A DNA stretch of 64,000 nt from Anaeromyxobacteraceae bacterium. Its GTDB lineage: Bacteria; Myxococcota; Myxococcia; Myxococcales; Anaeromyxobacteraceae. Below are positions 33,645 to 60,935 of the stretch, one piece after another. Position 1 is the first letter of the stretch. Each line of letters opens with the position of its first letter. Where the stretch lies: contig JASGHJ010000002.1 of the NCBI GenBank assembly GCA_047602405.1, positions 2,464,001 through 2,528,000 of the forward strand, written 5' to 3'. Both the position numbers and the translations under genes were made by a program. The notes beneath the pieces are model-generated. The model did not search any database, was not told the origin of the DNA, and saw only the letters and a program-made list of their open reading frames with translations.

Positions 33645-33835
33645 GTCGGACGAGGCGTCCTCTCGAGGGTGGCCGGGGGCGGCCTCGTCCTGACGCGGTC
33701 GTCGCATCCGGTCCGATGATCGGGCGGGCCAGCCGAGGGCCCTGCGGTGCGGAGAGGCCCGGCGTTCCGGCCGCCCACGATCGGGGTTGATGGGGCGAGG
33801 AGGGATGGCGGGGCCTCGTAGAGGAGCTCGTCTGT

Positions 33836-42522: not shown

Positions 42523-43269
42523 CGCCGGTCCTCGCGGTCGACGCGCTCCGGAAGGTCTACGCCGGCGCGCCCGCGGTGGACGGCGTGTCGTTCGAGGTCC
42601 GCCCCGGCGAGAATCGTGGGCCTGCTCGGGCCGAACGGCGCCGGGAAGACCACCACCCTCTCGATCATCCTCGGCGTGCTCTCGCCCACCGCGGGCACGA
42701 TCCACGTCGACGGCATCGACCTCGCCGCGCGGCGGGCCGAGGCGCTCGAGCGCACGGGCTTCGCCGCCGTCTACGCCGCGCTGCCCGGCAACCTCACGGT
42801 CGTCCAGAACCTCAGGGTCTCCGGGATGCTCTACGGCGTCGGCGACCTCGAGGCGCGCATCGAGGCCACGCTCGAGGCGCTCGACCTCGTCCGCTTCCGT
42901 AACGCGAAGACCGGGGTGCTGTCCTCCGGCGAGCAGACGCGCGTCTCGCTCGCGAAGGCGCTCCTCAACCGGCCGCGGCTGCTCCTCCTGGACGAGCCGA
43001 CGGCCTCGCTCGACCCCTCCACCGCCCGCGACCTGCGCGCCCGGATCAAGGCGTCGGCGGCCTCCGGCGAGATCGCCGGGGTCCTCTGGACCTCGCACAA
43101 CATGCTCGAGGTCGAGGCGGTCTGCGATCGCGTGCTGTTCCTCTCGAAGGGCAAGATCCTCCTCGAGGGCGACCCCCGGCGGCTGCCCGGCGAGCACGGC
43201 AAGGCCACGCTCGAGGATCTCTTCGTCGCGGTCGCGCGCGAGCCGCTCTCGCTGGAGGGCGCCGCGTGA
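42519..43269 (+). CDS. ABC transporter ATP-binding protein (frameshift at ~42612)
   Basis: [14 protein letters not shown]...[27 protein letters not shown]. Confidence 0.88.
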
Positions 43270-44072
43270 TCCGCCCCCGCCGCGTCTGGGCGCTCGTGCT
43301 GCGCCAGCTCTACCTGCTCCGCGGGAGCCCCGCCCGCGTGCTGCCGCTGTTCGCCTGGGTGGCGATCGACGTCGTCCTGTGGGGCTTCATCTCCCGCTAC
43401 CTCGACCAGGTCTCCGCCGCGCGCTTCGACTTCGTCCCGGTGCTCCTCGGCGCGGTGCTGCTCTGGGACTTCTTCGGCCGGGTCCTGCACGGCGTGGCCA
43501 TGGCGTTCTTCGAGGACGTGTGGTCGCGGAACTTCCTCAACGTCTTCGCCGCGCCCATCACCACGGTCGAGTACGTCGCGGGGCTCGTCTGCTCCTCGAT
43601 CCTCACGAGCAGCGTCGGCCTCGCGGTGATGCTGGCGCTCGCCTTCCTCGGCTTCGGCCTCTCGTACCTGGGCGCCGCCGCCGCGGTGGTCCCGGCGCTC
43701 CTCGTCCTCTTCCTCTTCGGCATCGCCCTCGGCATCGTGGGCTGCGCCGTGGTCCTGCGCCTTGGCCCCGCCGCCGAGTGGCTGATCTGGCCGGTCCCGG
43801 CCATGATCTCGCCCTTCGCGGGCGTCTTCTATCCCGTCTCCACCCTGCCGCCCTGGATGCAGGCGGTGTCCTGGCTGCTCCCGCCCTCCTACGTCTTCGA
43901 GACCCTCCGGGCGGTCCTCGGCGGGGCCCCGGTCGCGTGGGGCGCCCTCGCCATCGCGGCGGCCCTCGCCGTGCTCGACGTCGTCCTCGCGGGCTGGCTG
44001 TTCGTGGCCGTTCACCGCCACGCCGTTCGCACGGGGCTCCTCGCCAGGTACTCCGCGGAGACCGTCTCGTAG
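43266..44072 (+). CDS. ABC-2 type transporter permease
   Basis: Six TM helices; GVFYPVSTLPPWMQ...LPPSYVFE. Confidence 0.9.
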   Translation: MIRPRRVWALVLRQLYLLRGSPARVLPLFAWVAIDVVLWGFISRYLDQVSAARFDFVPVLLGAVLLWDFFGRVLHGVAMAFFEDVWSRNFLNVFAAPITTVEYVAGLVCSSILTSSVGLAVMLALAFLGFGLSYLGAAAAVVPALLVLFLFGIALGIVGCAVVLRLGPAAEWLIWPVPAMISPFAGVFYPVSTLPPWMQAVSWLLPPSYVFETLRAVLGGAPVAWGALAIAAALAVLDVVLAGWLFVAVHRHAVRTGLLARYSAETVS

Positions 44073-44088: not shown

Positions 44089-44394
44089 GTGCGTGTTCGT
44101 GGGGGCGAAACGCGCCTCCGCGACGCCGGCCGGCTTCGTCGGTCTGTGTATGGAACCGATGCCCGGAACCGGGTGTGCTGCGATCGTGGAGGCCGCGGCA
44201 GGCCTGCACGCGAGTTGCGTGTGACGGCACAGCGCGCTGCGCGCGCCATGCCGTCACACGCCCTCGTCGCTTGGCCTGCAATCGCTAGGCTACTGGGAAC
44301 GTGGAGAGCCCGACCTCCGCCGGCCGTCGCTGCGGAGGTGCGTTTCGCCCTCGGGCGTAGTGAACGGTGATCGGCCGATACTGCTGGGTGGTGA
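44089..44394. repeat. Structured non-coding element, copy A (inverted homolog of 45976-46282)
   Basis: Outer stem 44103-44121/44332-44350; inner stems 44198-44204/44273-44279 and 44217-44229/44249-44261; 31-bp exact match (44250-44280) to the revcomp of 46090-46120. Confidence 0.75.
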
Positions 44395-44422
44395 GTATTG
44401 AACTGATATGGTTGGACCCGTC

Positions 44423-44461
44423 AACGAAGCCGGCCCGGTCGCAGGGTCGGCTTTTTCGTTT
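44423..44461 (+). terminator. Intrinsic terminator-like hairpin inside the IS end
   Basis: AAGCCGGCCC-GGTCGCA-GGGTCGGCTT followed by TTTCGTTT. Confidence 0.55.
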
Positions 44462-44499
44462 CTGCGTTCGGGCGGCCAAGGCGGTGGTCGACCTGAACT

Positions 44500-44632
44500 A
44501 GAGCGACGGCGGATCAGACTGATATTCGCGGGTTGGGTACCGCATGACCTGAATCCGTCGGGGGCTGCCTCGGTCTAACAGCGGGCATCAGGCTTCACGG
44601 CCCTGCCCATAGTTCATACGAGGATTCCCCTT
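44500..44632 (-). ncRNA. Putative bridge/seek RNA of the IS110 element (target- and donor-binding loops)
   Basis: Two stem/internal-loop modules. Loop sequences TGAACT and GTTAGAC match the insertion-site flanks; ATATCAG and ATTC match the IS circle junction. Exact RNA ends uncertain. Confidence 0.7.
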
Positions 44633-44681
44633 TGGGCCGGACCAAGTCGTCCACCGCCCTCGCCGCCCGAACGCGTCACAG

Positions 44682-45776
44682 CTACGCCTTTAGGAGTTGT
44701 GGCTGGCGCCCGATGGCCCAGACGAATCCCGCCAACTCGCGCGCGATGGCAACGACGACGCGGTTCTTGTTCATCCCGCGTCCCGTGAGCTTCCGATAGC
44801 GACCGCAGAGCCGCTCCTGGGCACGCCAGGCGATTCGCAAGACCTCCTCCGACAAGCCTCGACTTCTCTTCCTGAGGGCAGGGCTGTTCGCTGCTCGGTA
44901 CCGGTAAGCCCAGGCGGCCTCGACGAGAATGCGCCGAGCGTGGCCGTTCCCGGCGCGTGTGATTCTCCCTTGCTGCCGAGTTTCTCCGCTCGAGTGTTCC
45001 GAGGGGACGAGGCCGAGGTAGCCCATCAGCTCGGGGGCAGTGGCGAACCGGTCCAGGTCGCCGAGCTCCGCTGCGAGCACCGTGGCCGTGATGAGGTTGA
45101 CGCCGCGTAGCGACTGTAGCGCCTTCACCAGGGGCATCCGGCTCCAGCTCTCCACGAGCTCCTCGATGCTGCGGGTATGCCGGCGAACCCTCTCCCCCAC
45201 GTCTTCCACCGTCTTCAGGTAGTCCTCGAGGACCCGTTGCTGCGCCTCGTGCTCGAAATGCTGGACCCGAACCCACGCCAGGTGGTCGCGAGTCCACCGT
45301 GTCTTCCCTGTCCAGCGCCGCCCATGACGGAGAAGGAACTTCCCGAGCTGGTGACGGGCTACGCGCTCAGCCTTCTTCGCGGCATCTCGCGCGCGCTCGA
45401 GATCGCGCATGGCCTCGGTGGCTTCGTCGGGCACGTGGACTTCGGTCAGGTCTCCAGACCTCAGAAACCGGGCGAGCTTCACGGCATCCCGCCGGTCGGT
45501 CTTGACGCGATTGCCGGCCTTCATAGGCACCAACGAAGGCGCGACCACGACGCATTCGACGCCGCCGGCGTTGAGCGCTCGGTAGAGCCCGAACCCTGTT
45601 GGACCAGCCTCGTAGCAGCATTTGATGGTACCGAGCCGTCGCAGGCGCTTCAGCAGTGCCGCGGTGTCGTTGGCGACGACCGCCAAAGCGCTCGGCTCTC
45701 CCCGGCCGGGCTCAGCGACCGCGATGGCGATGCTGTCTGCGTGGACGTCGAGACCGACGAATCGTACGCTCTCCAT
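44682..45776 (-). CDS. IS110 family transposase (DEDD RuvC-like + Tnp20 domain)
   Basis: VGLDVH, CYEAGPTG, KTDRRDA, GLVPSEHSSG, GRITRAGN, VAIAREL; GGAGG RBS. Confidence 0.96.
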   Translation of the reverse strand: MESVRFVGLDVHADSIAIAVAEPGRGEPSALAVVANDTAALLKRLRRLGTIKCCYEAGPTGFGLYRALNAGGVECVVVAPSLVPMKAGNRVKTDRRDAVKLARFLRSGDLTEVHVPDEATEAMRDLERARDAAKKAERVARHQLGKFLLRHGRRWTGKTRWTRDHLAWVRVQHFEHEAQQRVLEDYLKTVEDVGERVRRHTRSIEELVESWSRMPLVKALQSLRGVNLITATVLAAELGDLDRFATAPELMGYLGLVPSEHSSGETRQQGRITRAGNGHARRILVEAAWAYRYRAANSPALRKRSRGLSEEVLRIAWRAQERLCGRYRKLTGRGMNKNRVVVAIARELAGFVWAIGRQPQLLKA

Positions 45777-45975
45777 GGTTGGACCCGCCTCCCGCTGTGG
45801 CTCTGCGCCGTGGGGTTTCGCAGCTTCGCGGAGTAACCCACGTTCGCGTGACAGCGGGTCCAACCATTCTGTCTAACGGTAAATACGATGAGGCTGCGAC
45901 GGGAGCCGTTGGCCTGAACCTGCGGATGAACGATCAGCGCGTCGCCCACCGCCGATGCCAGCCCGTTGGTCGTTC

Positions 45976-46282
45976 ATCAGCACCCGGCATCCACGGCCGA
46001 CGTTAGTTCTCCACGCCCGAGAGCCAAACGGGCCTCCGCAGCAGCGCGCAGCGAGCGACGGGCGAGGCTCCGTCTCCACATCGGGGCAATGCAGGCCAAG
46101 CGACGAGGGCGTGTGACGGCGACGTGCGCGAAGCGCACGGCGTCGTCACGCGCAACTCGCGTGCAGGCCTGCTGCCACGATCACCGCCATGGAACGGCAA
46201 CGGTTCCGGCGATCGCTTCCGTCTCAAACCCGTCCGAGCAAGCGCTGTCGCGGAGGCCCGTTTGGCTCCCACGGCACCGCAT
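45976..46282. repeat. Structured non-coding element, copy B (inverted homolog of 44089-44394)
   Basis: Perfect 19-bp outer stem 46021-46039/46250-46268; inner rod 46091-46172 with apical CGTGCGC-GAA-GCGCACG. Confidence 0.75.
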
Positions 46283-46305
46283 GCCGACAAACGGGAGGGA
46301 GGGAG

Positions 46306-48117
46306 TCACGTGGTTCCGTAGAGCTCGCCGACGGACTTCCCGAGCCACGCCATGAGCGCGTCCCGCTTCACCTTGAGGGTGGGCGTGAGGAGCTGCGGAT
46401 GCTCGGCGAGCTCTCCCGCGATGACGAGGAGCTTCTTCGGCTTCTCGTAGTCGCTGAAGGAGGCGAGGACGGCGCGGGCGTGCGGGAGGAGCGTGGCGGC
46501 CGCGTCCTGGCCGGCTGCGGCGAGGCGGGAGAGCTCGTCGCGGGAGACGAAGACGACGGCGGCGACGAAGGGCCGGCCCTCGCCGAGGAGCACCGCGCCC
46601 TGGAACGGGTGGGCGGCGCCCAGGGCCTGCTCGATGGGCTCGGGGGAGAGCTTCTTCCCGGTCGAGAGGACGAGGACGTGCTTCTTGCGGCCCTCGACGC
46701 GGAGCGCGCCGTCGGCCTCGAACTTCACGAGGTCGCCGGTGTGGAAGAAGCCCTCCTCGTCGAAGGCGGCGCGGTCGTCCTCCGCCTCGAGGTGGCCGGT
46801 GAGCATGAGCGGCCCCTTCAGCATGAGCTCGCCGTCGGCGCCGACGCGGACCACGTGGTCCGGGGAGACGTAGCCCACCACGCCCGGGCGGCGCGGGCCT
46901 GCGCGCAGGTTCGAGCTGATCATGCCCGCGGTCTCGCTCATCCCGTAAAGCTCCACGAGCGGGAGGCCGAGCGACTCGAAGAAGCGGAAGAGCGCCGGGG
47001 AGGCCGGGGCGCCGCCCGCGTAGAGGCCGCGCACCCGGCCGCCGAGCTTCGCCCGGACGGCCTTCCCGACCAGGCGGTCGGCGAGCGCGGTCCAGACGTG
47101 ATCCGAGAGGCGCGCGGAGCCGTCGACGCGCGTCCGCGCGGCGCCCTGGAGCGCCGCGTTCGCGAGGGCCCGCACCGGCGCGGGCAGCTTCGCGACCTTC
47201 GCGAGGACCGCGTCGCGGATGCGCTCGTACACGAGCGGCACCGAGAAGAGGTAGGTCGGCCCGAGCGCGAGCGCGCGCTCCATCTCCTCGCGCCCGGAGA
47301 TCATGAGGAGCCGGTGCGCCTGCGCGACCGCGAGGAAGAACTGGTCGTGCCCGGCGACGTGCGCGAAGGGCAGGAAGTGCAGGCCGAGGTCGTCGGGCGA
47401 GACGCCGGTCGCCGGCCCGCCCGCGTCCACCGCGGTGACGATGGCGCGCTGCGAGAGGCGCACGCCCTTCGGCCGGCCGGTGGTGCCGCTCGTGAAGAGG
47501 AGCAGGAAGGGGTCGTCCTCGCCGGCCTGCGCGGCGAGCGCCTCGAGGTGCTCGAGGCCCGGGCCGCCGGCCTCGAGCGCCGCGCGCGCCTCGACCACCT
47601 CGACGCCGGCGGGGACCCTGGCCGGCGGGAGCGGCTCCAGGGTGACGACGCCGCGGAGGCCCGCCTCGACGAGCTCCCCGCCGATGGGCGCGAGCTTCTC
47701 CCACTGGGCGGGCCCCGTGACGAAGGCCACCCGCGGGCGGACCCGCCGGGCGATGCCCTGCGCGGTCTCCGCCGAGAGGCTCGCGAAGAGCGCCGCCGGC
47801 TCGGCGCGGACGGCCTGGGCGCCGAGCGCGAGCTCCTGCCACTCCGGCGCGTTCTCGGCGAGGAAGAGCACCCGGTCCCCGGCGCCGACGCCGAGCCGCG
47901 TGAGGAGCGCGGCCGCCCGGGCGATCGCCTCCGCGAAGCCGCGGAACGTGACCGACCGCTCCGTGCCGCCCTTCTCGAGGAACCGGATGAAGACCTCGTC
48001 GCCCTTCTTCCGCGCGGCGGTGAGGACCTGGCGCGGCAGCGTCCGGTCCGGATGGCGGGCGACCTCGAGGCGGCGGAGCTGGGGCTCGGTGCGGGCGTCC
48101 ATGACGCACCGGACCAT
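46306..48117 (-). CDS. AMP-dependent synthetase / long-chain acyl-CoA ligase
   Basis: FTSGTTGRPKG, ELYGMSET, TGDL, LTPTLKVKR. Confidence 0.9.
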   Translation of the reverse strand: MVRCVMDARTEPQLRRLEVARHPDRTLPRQVLTAARKKGDEVFIRFLEKGGTERSVTFRGFAEAIARAAALLTRLGVGAGDRVLFLAENAPEWQELALGAQAVRAEPAALFASLSAETAQGIARRVRPRVAFVTGPAQWEKLAPIGGELVEAGLRGVVTLEPLPPARVPAGVEVVEARAALEAGGPGLEHLEALAAQAGEDDPFLLLFTSGTTGRPKGVRLSQRAIVTAVDAGGPATGVSPDDLGLHFLPFAHVAGHDQFFLAVAQAHRLLMISGREEMERALALGPTYLFSVPLVYERIRDAVLAKVAKLPAPVRALANAALQGAARTRVDGSARLSDHVWTALADRLVGKAVRAKLGGRVRGLYAGGAPASPALFRFFESLGLPLVELYGMSETAGMISSNLRAGPRRPGVVGYVSPDHVVRVGADGELMLKGPLMLTGHLEAEDDRAAFDEEGFFHTGDLVKFEADGALRVEGRKKHVLVLSTGKKLSPEPIEQALGAAHPFQGAVLLGEGRPFVAAVVFVSRDELSRLAAAGQDAAATLLPHARAVLASFSDYEKPKKLLVIAGELAEHPQLLTPTLKVKRDALMAWLGKSVGELYGTT

Positions 48118-59679: not shown

Positions 59680-60935
59680 CCCCCTGACCTCCCCCCCAAC
59701 CCCAGAGGCTCCCCCGTTTCCAGGGTTAGGGCGGGGCCGGCAGGGGTCCCGGAGCCCGTGTAAGCGCCGGTTCTTGGCCGTCGTGCTCGCGCAGTTTCGA
59801 CGAGCCGGCTTGCGCCGCCGCTTTCGACACTGCTTCGCGGTGAAACGGAGGCAGACCACTCCGGCGCCGCCGGAGCAGTCGGTGAGTTTCGGAGGTCGGG
59901 ACGGCCCGCGCTAGACAGGCGGGGCGCAGGCGGCGCCGAGCACGGCGCCCATGGCCCAGGTGCCGGGCGGGAACACGACGTTCCACATGCCCTTGCGGAA
60001 CAGCTCGAAGGCCTTGCGGTACGCGTCCTGGAACGCCTTCAGCTGCTGCTGCGCCTCGATCCGCTTCCACCGGTCGGACGCCGCGATCTTCGGGTTGAGC
60101 TTGCTCGGCGGTTCCTTCCCGGCCGGATGCTGCCACCACCGCTGCCGGAGCACCCGCCGCAGCCCCGCGAACTTGCGCCGCTCGCCATCCTCGGTCCGCG
60201 CCGCCTGCTTCTCGAGCGCCGCGAGCGCGCCCTTCACCGACTCGCGGTACCGCGCCGCCGAGAAGCCCTTCGGCGGCACGAGCGCGAGCACGGCGCTGTC
60301 GGGCATGTTCCCGTCCTTCGAGAAGAACATCTCCGGCCGCTCGTACTCGCGCCCCGTGCCGAGCTCCTCGAGCGAGGACCAGAGCCCGGGCCAGTGGCTG
60401 CCGTGCTCGACGAGGCCGGCCGCGACCGGGTTCGCGAGCGTGTAGGCCGCCTTCGCGATGACGGAGCCCTCGTCCTCGAGCGAGACCGCGCTGTAGCTGC
60501 CGGGCGCCCAGGCCGACTCGAAGCGTTCGTGGAGGGTGTTGAGGAAGAGCGCGAGGTTCATGTTCAGCTCCTGGGCGAAGCGCGGGAGCTGAGCGAAGGG
60601 GTCGGAGAGGATCAGGTGGTAGTGGTTGGAGACGACGCACCAGGCGTGAAGCTCGATCTTGTGTCGCCGGGCGGCGACGGCGAGGAGGTAGCCGAAGGCG
60701 TTGTTGAGCCGCACGGAGGGCACGAGGAGGAAGAGGCGGTGCAGGCAACGGCGGGTGAACAGGTAGGTCTTGCCCGGAAGGATTCTGGCGGGGAGCGGTC
60801 ATGGCCTCCCCCGCATTCCACGCACCGTGCCGCTCCCAACTCCCTGGATTCCCAGGTCCCCGCCACCCGCACGCCGGCCGTTCCGCGGACCACCGTCCAA
60901 TCGGCGGACCTCTGGGGCAGGGGGGGATCAGGGGG
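59680..60935 (-). mobile_element. RAYT-like (Y1 HUH) element bounded by imperfect G/C-rich inverted repeats
   Basis: CCCCCTGACCTCCCCCCCAACCCCAGAGG (59680-59708) vs revcomp of 60909-60935, CCCCCTGATCCCCCCCTGCCCCAGAGG. Confidence 0.55.
59911..60802 (-). CDS. REP-associated tyrosine transposase-like (IS200/Y1 HUH) protein, frameshift at ~60783
   Basis: MTAPRQ|ILPGKTYLFTRRC..., HUH motif SNHYHL, Y...NPVAAGLV, W.G.WSS. Confidence 0.85.

What the first reader, a model, noticed from the sequence alone, without database searches (positions are those of the whole stretch)
44089..46282. Pair of diverged, inverted ~300-bp non-coding elements, each a 248-nt rod-like hairpin with compensatory changes
Seen: copy A (~44089-44394) and copy B (~45976-46282) are homologous and inverted, filling the space between two convergent genes. 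The outer stems span exactly 248 nt in both (A 44103-44350; B 46021-46268). A arms are GGGCGAAACGCGCCTCCGC / GCGGAGGTGCGTTTCGCCC; B arms are GAGCCAAACGGGCCTCCGC / GCGGAGGCCCGTTTGGCTC. That is three fully compensatory base-pair swaps plus one G-T/G-C change. An 83-nt inner rod (44198-44280 vs 46090-46172) keeps its first 22 and last 31 nt identical, including unpaired bulge bases, while the apical stem and linkers have diverged. Inference: selection acts on structure, length and specific bulges, not on protein. Candidates are an undescribed ncRNA family, or ssDNA hairpin substrates (REPIN/MITE-like or attC-like) for a HUH or tyrosine recombinase. G-T wobbles do not favour one strand consistently and copy B has a GCGAAGC mini-hairpin, which leans toward a DNA-level function. 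I do not recognise the family.
Basis: partly seen in the sequence, partly recalled or inferred. Interest (0 to 1): 0.85.

Follow-up and report, generated by a model that had tools for sequence, protein, structure and literature searches.

The report
Giant facing DNA hairpins, transposon-targeted
The two hairpins belong to an apparently undescribed 31-copy repeat family that nearly always sits as two facing copies just after the stop codons of converging genes, here split by an RNA-guided IS110 transposon that inserts at their tails; the repeat likely spreads as folded single-stranded DNA, like an oversized REPIN, and the enzyme that would move it was not found.

Summary
Its predicted bridge RNA carries guides matching the tail of copy A, and all 4 genome copies sit at that site. 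A and B are 2 of 31 copies of a ~320-nt unit: 15 tail-to-tail pairs, all between convergent genes (16.6% of gaps), plus one solo. Every unit lies sense to the upstream gene. Stems covary, length is nearly fixed, no frame is conserved and nothing in Rfam matches. The apex reads as a GCGNAGC DNA mini-hairpin on the antisense strand in 26 of 32 copies. Linkage follows folded, not linear, distance. Sites are often empty in the sister genome. Two more families share the layout: one in this genome (this scan reported it before, e1-9979641) and one in 5 other genomes of the genus, found through the transposon's relatives. Best reading: a giant REPIN/BIME-like non-autonomous element acting as ssDNA, probably moved in trans by a HUH nuclease (0.55). 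No cognate enzyme gene was found, so it fails strict REPIN membership. A new variant of a known kind; interest 0.58.

The parts
43266..44072 (+). ABC-2 permease gene; its stop codon lies ~10-20 nt before unit A
   Evidence: PF01061
44082..44404 (+). Unit A (family I, A-type body, A-type tail): variable leader, GTGG foot, outer arms 44103-44134 / 44319-44350, side branch, inner rod, G-rich tail ending in GAAC-T
44198..44280 (+). Inner rod of unit A
44236..44242 (-). Apical GCGCAGC (GNA-type DNA mini-hairpin) of unit A, read on the strand antisense to the upstream gene
   Evidence: sequence; PMC13037366 passages
44403..44404 (+). CT core of the IS target (target ATGAA/TTGAA-CT-AACGG); second CT at 45873-45874
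   Evidence: four identical junctions
44405..45874 (-). IS1111-group IS110 element, 1,470 bp, 4 copies 99.7-100% identical, all at this position of a unit tail; 13-bp sub-terminal inverted repeats at 44408-44420 and 45855-45867
44464..44674 (-). Predicted bridge RNA in the IS right end: target-binding loop guides at 44610-44618 and 44575-44581, donor guide at 44519-44525
   Evidence: fold; guide/target covariation in related IS copies
44682..45776 (-). IS110 DEDD recombinase, 364 aa, intact
   Evidence: PF01548 E 2.9e-13, PF02371 E 8.2e-22
45875..45966 (.). Native spacer of the pair; related spacers at two other loci
45967..46289 (-). Unit B (family I, B-type body, B-type tail): outer arms 46242-46268 / 46021-46047, inner rod 46090-46172
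46128..46134 (+). Apical GCGAAGC mini-hairpin of unit B, on the strand antisense to its upstream gene
   Evidence: sequence
46306..48117 (-). AMP-binding enzyme gene; its stop codon lies ~20-26 nt before unit B
   Evidence: PF00501

Best explanation
A and B are the two facing halves of one copy of a giant palindromic repeat that is present 31 times in this genome, and it likely spreads as a non-autonomous element handled in folded single-stranded DNA form, like an oversized REPIN/BIME; the IS1111 transposon between them arrived later and inserts at the unit's tail. Shown: copy number, pairing, placement after stop codons, covarying stems, patchy occupancy in the sister genome, the four IS junctions. 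Inferred: a HUH (Y1/RAYT-type) nuclease encoded elsewhere cuts and rejoins the folded strand near the GTGG foot; copies exchange nested helix segments while folded or by gene conversion filtered for pairing; pairs survive best at convergent gene ends because they are polar elsewhere; the IS bridge RNA was reprogrammed to this safe, multi-copy landing site.
For: 31 units: 15 inward-facing pairs and 1 solo. 15 of 15 pairs are between convergent genes, against 845 of 5,081 gaps genome-wide (crude gene caller). Of 8 sites picked by flank in sister genome G010, 5 lack any unit, 2 keep only fused outer ends and 1 was unresolved; G010 has 3 intact rods. 93.7% of cells paired over 61 pairs, covariation score 0.207 vs 0.092 in shuffles and at most 0.075 when slid. 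Arm-to-arm length 252-257 nt in 30 of 32; REPIN spacers are likewise constrained in length and hairpin capacity with compensatory changes (PMC3116915 passages). Apex is GNA on the antisense strand in 26 of 32 (GCA 14, GAA 11, GTA 1) and 26 of 37 family III units; only GNA forms the stable DNA mini-hairpin and the RNA version is far weaker (PMC13037366 passages). Inner-rod mismatches are 51 A-C vs 14 G-T cells, i.e. G-T on the antisense strand. Each arm holds a small imperfect palindrome with GTGG at its foot in 20 of 32. 11 of 14 intact pairs are tail heterodimers, as is common for REP dimers (PMC3733652 section 14). Linkage decays with folded distance (rho -0.38, 0 of 2,000 permutations) and not linear distance (rho 0.01). 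IS guides match their own targets in 8 of the 11 related IS copies printed (read by eye).
Against: No Y1 gene is flanked by any unit: 0 of 35 Y1 loci from 7 genomes, and none of 81 genes beside family III units is a nuclease or transposase other than IS110. No target-site duplication or clean empty/filled junction could be read. The GTGG tag is only 63% conserved and is on one arm. Strand signals are mixed: the outer stem has 92 G-T vs 17 A-C cells on the sense strand, RNA energies favour the sense strand in 28 of 32, DNA energies are near a tie (20 of 32). GCGCGNAGCGC is common in this genome's intergenic DNA (105, against 11-176 for five control loops). The number of pairs with two-sided change (17) is reached by 62 of 500 shuffles, and copies are related, so events are few. 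No excised or circular form was observed.
Confidence: 0.55

Rival explanations
1. A structured RNA element: a 3'-UTR stabiliser, bidirectional terminator or ncRNA transcribed with the upstream gene and spread by gene conversion or an RNA route.
For: 31 of 31 units are sense to the upstream gene, mostly 6-170 nt after the stop. RNA folding favours the sense strand in 28 of 32 and 20 of 20 family II units. G-T pairs at the base of the outer stem. The second half of every spacer is C-rich on the read-through strand (14 of 14), which would suit Rho (recalled property).
Against: No Rfam family (4 weak miRNA-type hits, all far below gathering score). The apical GNA loop and rod wobbles favour the opposite strand as DNA. 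Occupancy is patchy in the sister species. No promoter-like site, and the only terminator-like site is inside the IS.
Confidence: 0.16
2. A host-maintained single-strand priming or fork-rescue signal (ssi-like) placed on both strands at convergent gene ends.
For: Each strand of a pair ends in one GNA-capped rod; mini-hairpins occur in G4 and ssiA priming signals (PMC13037366 passages). The layout recurs in three sequence-distinct families.
Against: Absent from most sites in the sister genome and decaying by internal deletion. Families I and II were found in only 2 of 92 family genomes. No primase gene is linked.
Confidence: 0.08
3. A MITE or composite transposon: the two units are very long terminal inverted repeats moved, with any cargo between them, by a DDE transposase or by the IS110 itself.
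For: The pair, spacer included, is copied as a unit (related spacers at three groups of loci). Small foreign genes lie between facing units in families II and III.
Against: Outer ends are the most variable part (leader entropy 1.06 vs 0.34 in the arm), the opposite of a TIR. No target-site duplication. Units lack the IS sub-terminal repeats and donor site, and G010 has units but no match to the IS (only 2 candidates scored per genome).
Confidence: 0.1
4. attC-like single-strand recombination sites of an integron-type cassette system that captures small genes.
For: Folded-strand signature with conserved bulges, nested exchange, cassette-like cargo such as DUF7832, DUF4276 and SMI1/KNR4, IS1111 targeting; B tails contain RAYYAAC.
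Against: No RYYYAAC...GTTRRRY pair at unit ends (consensus recalled). Units face each other instead of forming direct arrays. No integrase among the 81 neighbours scanned.
Confidence: 0.06
5. Retro-copies of a retron msr-msd RNA or another reverse-transcribed RNA.
For: Outer stem, side branch and long inner rod resemble the a2-msr-msd-a1 layout (recalled). msDNA-like dispersed repeats are reported in the myxobacterium Nannocystis (titles only, reference list of PMC6868368). Tandem stutter of the 5' end at 4 of 31 units.
Against: The 8 RT matches in the genome are all one group II intron (7 intact, 1 deleted), none near a unit. Obligate inverted pairing is not explained.
Confidence: 0.04

Closest known systems
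REPINs (Bertels and Rainey 2011, PMC3116915; passages read)
   Same: Extragenic, multi-copy, two inverted palindromic arms with a spacer constrained in length and hairpin capacity, compensatory changes, presence/absence between relatives.
   Different: Arms are ~250 nt apart (71 bp in the GI example), the interior is a conserved multi-branch fold, units occur as facing pairs of ~700 nt, placement is strictly convergent, and no linked RAYT was found.
REP dimers / BIMEs, GTAG-tagged repeats and TIRtrons (Di Nocera 2013, PMC3733652, sections 14 and 16 and passages; Corneloup 2021, PMC8266576, passages)
   Same: Downstream of stop codons, convergent bias, heterodimers preferred, a GTGG variant of the tag at the hairpin foot, IS110 targets.
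   Different: REPs are 20-50 nt; the tag is >90% conserved in most families but 63% here; no REPtron; no solo REP-sized copies elsewhere in the genome.
IS1111 group of IS110 with right-end bridge RNA (Durrant 2024, PMC11208160, passages); ISPpu10 targeting a repeated intergenic stem-loop (bioRxiv 10.64898/2026.03.19.712850, abstract only)
   Same: The passenger IS is an ordinary member: DEDD recombinase, 13-bp sub-terminal repeats, CT core, two-loop RNA in the long right end, guides matching a repeated intergenic target.
   Different: Its target is the tail of an undescribed giant repeat; close relatives are programmed for other targets, including a GTAG REP and family III rods.
Family II paired hairpins of the same genome (earlier scan finding e1-9979641)
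   Same: Same size, facing layout, convergent context, CCGTGGG-like foot, decay by internal deletion; colinear short motifs.
   Different: No profile cross-match; family II has a variable apex and no IS1111 of this type was found in it (all 4 copies are in family I).

Membership tests
REPIN / BIME | Multi-copy and extragenic | tested here: met
   31 copies, none overlapping a called gene
REPIN / BIME | Two inverted palindromic arms forming one hairpin, length-constrained spacer | tested here: met
REPIN / BIME | GTAG-type tetranucleotide at the foot of each REP | tested here: inconclusive
   GTGG in 20 of 32 at the 5' arm, absent at the 3' arm
REPIN / BIME | Cognate RAYT gene flanked by the same repeat (REPtron) | tested here: not met
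   0 of 35 Y1 loci in 7 genomes; genomes 70-99% complete
REPIN / BIME | REP-sized (20-50 nt) repeat occurring also as singlets | tested here: not met
   arm model finds only units and their adjacent stutter copies
REPIN / BIME | Cleavage and strand transfer by TnpA-REP on ssDNA | not testable with these tools
   needs an in vitro assay
MITE (DDE-type) | Conserved terminal inverted repeats and target-site duplication | tested here: not met
   outer ends most variable; no duplication at 5 empty sites, though these gaps are diverged
Known structured RNA family | Rfam match at gathering score | tested here: not met
Known structured RNA family | Transcript of defined ends | not testable with these tools
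   no RNA holder listed
attC site | R''/R' boxes (RYYYAAC...GTTRRRY) and direct-repeat cassette array with an integrase | tested here: not met
   consensus recalled
Retron ncRNA | Adjacent retron reverse transcriptase | tested here: not met
   only group II intron RTs in the genome
IS1111 group (passenger IS) | DEDD recombinase with Tnp20 domain | tested here: met
IS1111 group (passenger IS) | Sub-terminal inverted repeats of 7-17 bp, long right end | tested here: met
   13 bp, 7 and 3 nt from the ends; right end ~280 nt
IS1111 group (passenger IS) | Right-end bridge RNA whose loops match target and donor | tested here: met
   predicted fold; guide/target covariation; expression untested

The most novel reading that the evidence does not exclude
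A new class of single-strand-DNA mobile element in Anaeromyxobacter: ~300-nt GNA-capped multi-branch rods that dock behind stop codons, pair up across convergent gene ends, recombine with each other as folded hairpins (so that both strands of a helix are swapped in one crossover), capture small cargo genes between them, and are moved by an enzyme unrelated to RAYTs.
Probability: 0.2. Interest if true: 0.85.

Novelty: new variant of a known kind. Interest (0 to 1): 0.58.

Why it matters
How REP-type repeats spread is still open. Here are three sequence-distinct families with one large, information-rich architecture, in 7 genomes of one genus, without a linked RAYT. Their size gives many covarying helices, a strand-specific DNA loop and nested allele swaps, which make the folded-ssDNA model testable and give defined substrates for finding the enzyme. 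The locus is also a clean natural case of a bridge RNA retargeted to a lineage-specific repeat; following such IS1111 elements proved a practical way to find further unknown repeat families.

Tried and rejected
Rfam: 4 weak hits, none at gathering score. Conserved ORF: rejected; no frame is stop-free in all 32 copies (best 23 of 32, antisense) and lengths differ by 1-nt steps. Cognate RAYT: none flanked. IS91/Y2: no match, but the controls did not ring either, so uninformative. Retron: rejected. Wider homologues of family I: full-length copies in 2 of 61 and 2 of 92 genomes, other hits short; the 35-nt hits in G006 and G011 were dropped as chance (the G006 one lies in coding sequence). No RNA holder listed. 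Homology between families: I-II weakly supported (mean local score 47.1 vs 41.1 antisense and 40.2 shuffled), I-III and II-III barely above controls, no profile cross-hits. Replication polarity of A/B tails: 7 of 9 heterodimers on contig C2 follow the skew, too few to call. Y1 end-stutter lead from earlier findings: those repeats do not match the unit ends. Literature: 'Anaeromyxobacter + REPIN' 0 papers; 'palindromic, repeats, Anaeromyxobacter, REP, transposase' 7 papers, 6 listed, none on this by title or abstract; 'Anaeromyxobacter, MITE, inverted repeat' 2 papers, listing only; 'REPIN, convergent, RAYT, doublets, cargo' 0; a 2026 noncoding-space preprint has no mention of the genus in its main text, and its supplements could not be seen and may hold this family.

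Full report
OBSERVATION. The two elements are present as described. The arms, the 248-nt span, the three two-sided swaps and the 83-nt rod all check, and both fold better than all 100 shuffles. The statement that they fill the intergenic gap is wrong: between them lies an intact 364-aa IS110 recombinase gene within a 1,470-bp element (44405-45874). The flanking genes, an ABC-2 permease and an AMP-binding enzyme, are convergent.

A REPEAT FAMILY. BLAST and a profile search of the whole genome (6.16 Mb, 98% complete) give 31 copies: 15 pairs with their 3' tails facing and 1 solo. One pair is fused by an internal deletion. With a crude gene caller, 15 of 15 pairs lie between convergent genes, which make up 845 of 5,081 gaps, and all 31 units are sense to the upstream gene. 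The solo copy lies between co-directional genes and has lost its partner. Spacers are 59-264 nt, related between loci, G-rich next to each tail and prone to short tandem repeats. Four of 31 units carry tandem partial copies of the leader and first arm just upstream. No piece of the unit occurs elsewhere on its own.

DISTRIBUTION AND MOBILITY. Full-length copies were found only in this genome and G010 among 92 genomes of the family (few candidates are scored per genome). Two titled records that hold the unit are Anaeromyxobacter sp., so the window is inferred to come from that genus. G010 has 3 intact rods at three orthologous sites, with different alleles or internal deletions. Of 8 further sites picked by their flanks, 5 have no unit (including this window's site), 2 keep only the fused outer ends and 1 lost synteny. 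So the element is gained and lost between sister species, but the gaps are too diverged to read an insertion signature. Short contigs from wastewater and sludge runs of more than one study carry further variants (low depth).

STRUCTURE. On 32 copies, 61 named pairs are 93.7% paired, with covariation score 0.207 against 0.092 in shuffles (0 of 500) and at most 0.075 when slid; the count of pairs with two-sided change (17) is not beyond shuffles (62 of 500). The copies are related and the structure came from them, so this shows a maintained fold, not many independent events. Arm-to-arm length is 252-257 nt in 30 of 32. No frame is conserved and Rfam has no match. Left and right alleles of each helix stay matched while helices assort against each other (all four body-by-loop combinations occur); r-squared between 104 informative columns falls with folded distance (rho -0.38, 0 of 2,000 permutations) and not with linear distance. 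This fits exchange between folded hairpins, or ordinary conversion filtered for pairing; the two-type body structure contributes to the signal.

DNA OR RNA. The apex reads T-N-C on the sense strand in 26 of 32 copies, that is GCA, GAA or GTA in a GCGNAGC context on the antisense strand. Only GNA loops form the very stable DNA mini-hairpin, and RNA counterparts are much weaker (PMC13037366, passages). Rod mismatches are mostly A-C on the sense strand (51 vs 14 G-T cells), which pair on the antisense strand. Against this, the outer stem has sense-strand G-T, RNA energies favour the sense strand in 28 of 32, DNA energies are near a tie, and the loop motif is common in this GC-rich genome. The balance favours ssDNA, not decisively.

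THE TRANSPOSON. All 4 copies (99.7-100% identical) are inserted at the same CT core at the end of an A-type tail, in the same orientation. It has 13-bp sub-terminal repeats and a long right end, the marks of the IS1111 group (PMC11208160, passages). The right end folds into a two-loop RNA whose first loop holds ATGAACT and GTTAG, matching the two sides of the target, and whose second holds ATATCAG, matching the donor junction. Related elements occur in 10 of 300 other genomes of the order; in 8 of the 11 related copies printed the left guide matches that copy's own, different target by 5-7 nt, 1 is a near match, 1 mismatches and 1 is not legible (read by eye, part of the output cut). The IS is therefore an ordinary bridge recombinase element programmed for this repeat; repeated intergenic stem-loops are known IS110 targets (ISPpu10, abstract only).

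MORE FAMILIES. An earlier scan note (e1-9979641) led to a second family in this genome: 22 hits, same facing layout, no profile cross-match, weak colinear similarity. Two IS relatives are inserted in a third family, multi-copy in 5 of 36 other genomes of the genus: 37 distinct ~300-nt units, a GTTGCCGTGGG-like foot, a GNA apex in 26 of 37, and usually the same gene-unit-unit-gene layout in the 60 partly redundant loci listed (not counted per site). Small foreign genes lie between facing units in families II and III. Common descent of the three is plausible but not shown.

ENZYME. Not found. None of 35 Y1 loci in 7 carrier genomes is flanked by a unit; none of 81 of the 105 neighbouring ORFs scanned is a candidate; the only RTs are a group II intron. 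All 7 carriers do encode Y1-type proteins, so action in trans remains possible.

MECHANISM AND VERDICT. Most likely (0.55) this is a non-autonomous REPIN/BIME-like element: exposed as ssDNA, it folds, is cut and rejoined by a HUH nuclease acting in trans (inferred), exchanges nested segments with other copies, and persists mainly at convergent gene ends, where an IS1111 element uses it as a landing site. It works like a REPIN (PMC3116915, passages; PMC3733652, sections 14 and 16; PMC8266576, passages) but is not filed as one: no REPtron, no REP-sized singlets, a weak tag. My searches found no description in print. Class: new variant of a known kind. Interest 0.58; 0.85 if a new enzyme and folded-form recombination are confirmed (probability 0.2).

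Noticed in passing
window 33656-33774 (+): Partial copy of the family II giant hairpin, behind the stop codon of a DnaK-like gene (name from sequence resemblance, recalled).
   Followed up: partly
window 59914-60798 (-): Y1/RAYT-like gene (PF01797, weak) with three ~98% identical copies elsewhere, one frameshifted, bounded by its own short terminal repeats unrelated to the units.
   Followed up: partly
L183-L190 (G000): One group II intron in 8 copies (7 intact, 1 internally deleted); the copies printed are inserted directly after an ATG, apparently at start codons.
   Followed up: no
L031:870-1117: The long spacer of this pair holds what looks like the end of another IS (IS21-like, recalled).
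   Followed up: no
L203 (G000:C2:278089-279621): Family II pair enclosing a lower-GC lipoprotein/TPR-like ORF and a partial third unit.
   Followed up: partly
L244:1973-2338, L246:1883-2143, L261:2312-2833, L293:1125-1403: Small cargo genes between facing family III units (no family, DUF7832, DUF4276, no family).
   Followed up: partly
L030, L043, L044, L028, L175, L178: A short CGTC-type REP-like palindrome (family name recalled) often abuts the outer end of units, and occupies this window's empty site in G010.
   Followed up: no
G000:C1:1972120-1973240; C2:199460-199870; C2:235920-236290: Facing simple-sequence repeat arrays, with or without a small four-helix-bundle-like gene between them: another symmetric element type in this genome.
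   Followed up: no
G000:C2:3400780-3404620: Two facing Rhs-core fragments (319 bp, 91% identical) with different C-terminal domains and small downstream genes, likely polymorphic toxin-immunity cassettes.
   Followed up: no
L210: A related IS1111 element is inserted in a classic GTAG REP cluster, with a guide that nearly matches it.
   Followed up: partly
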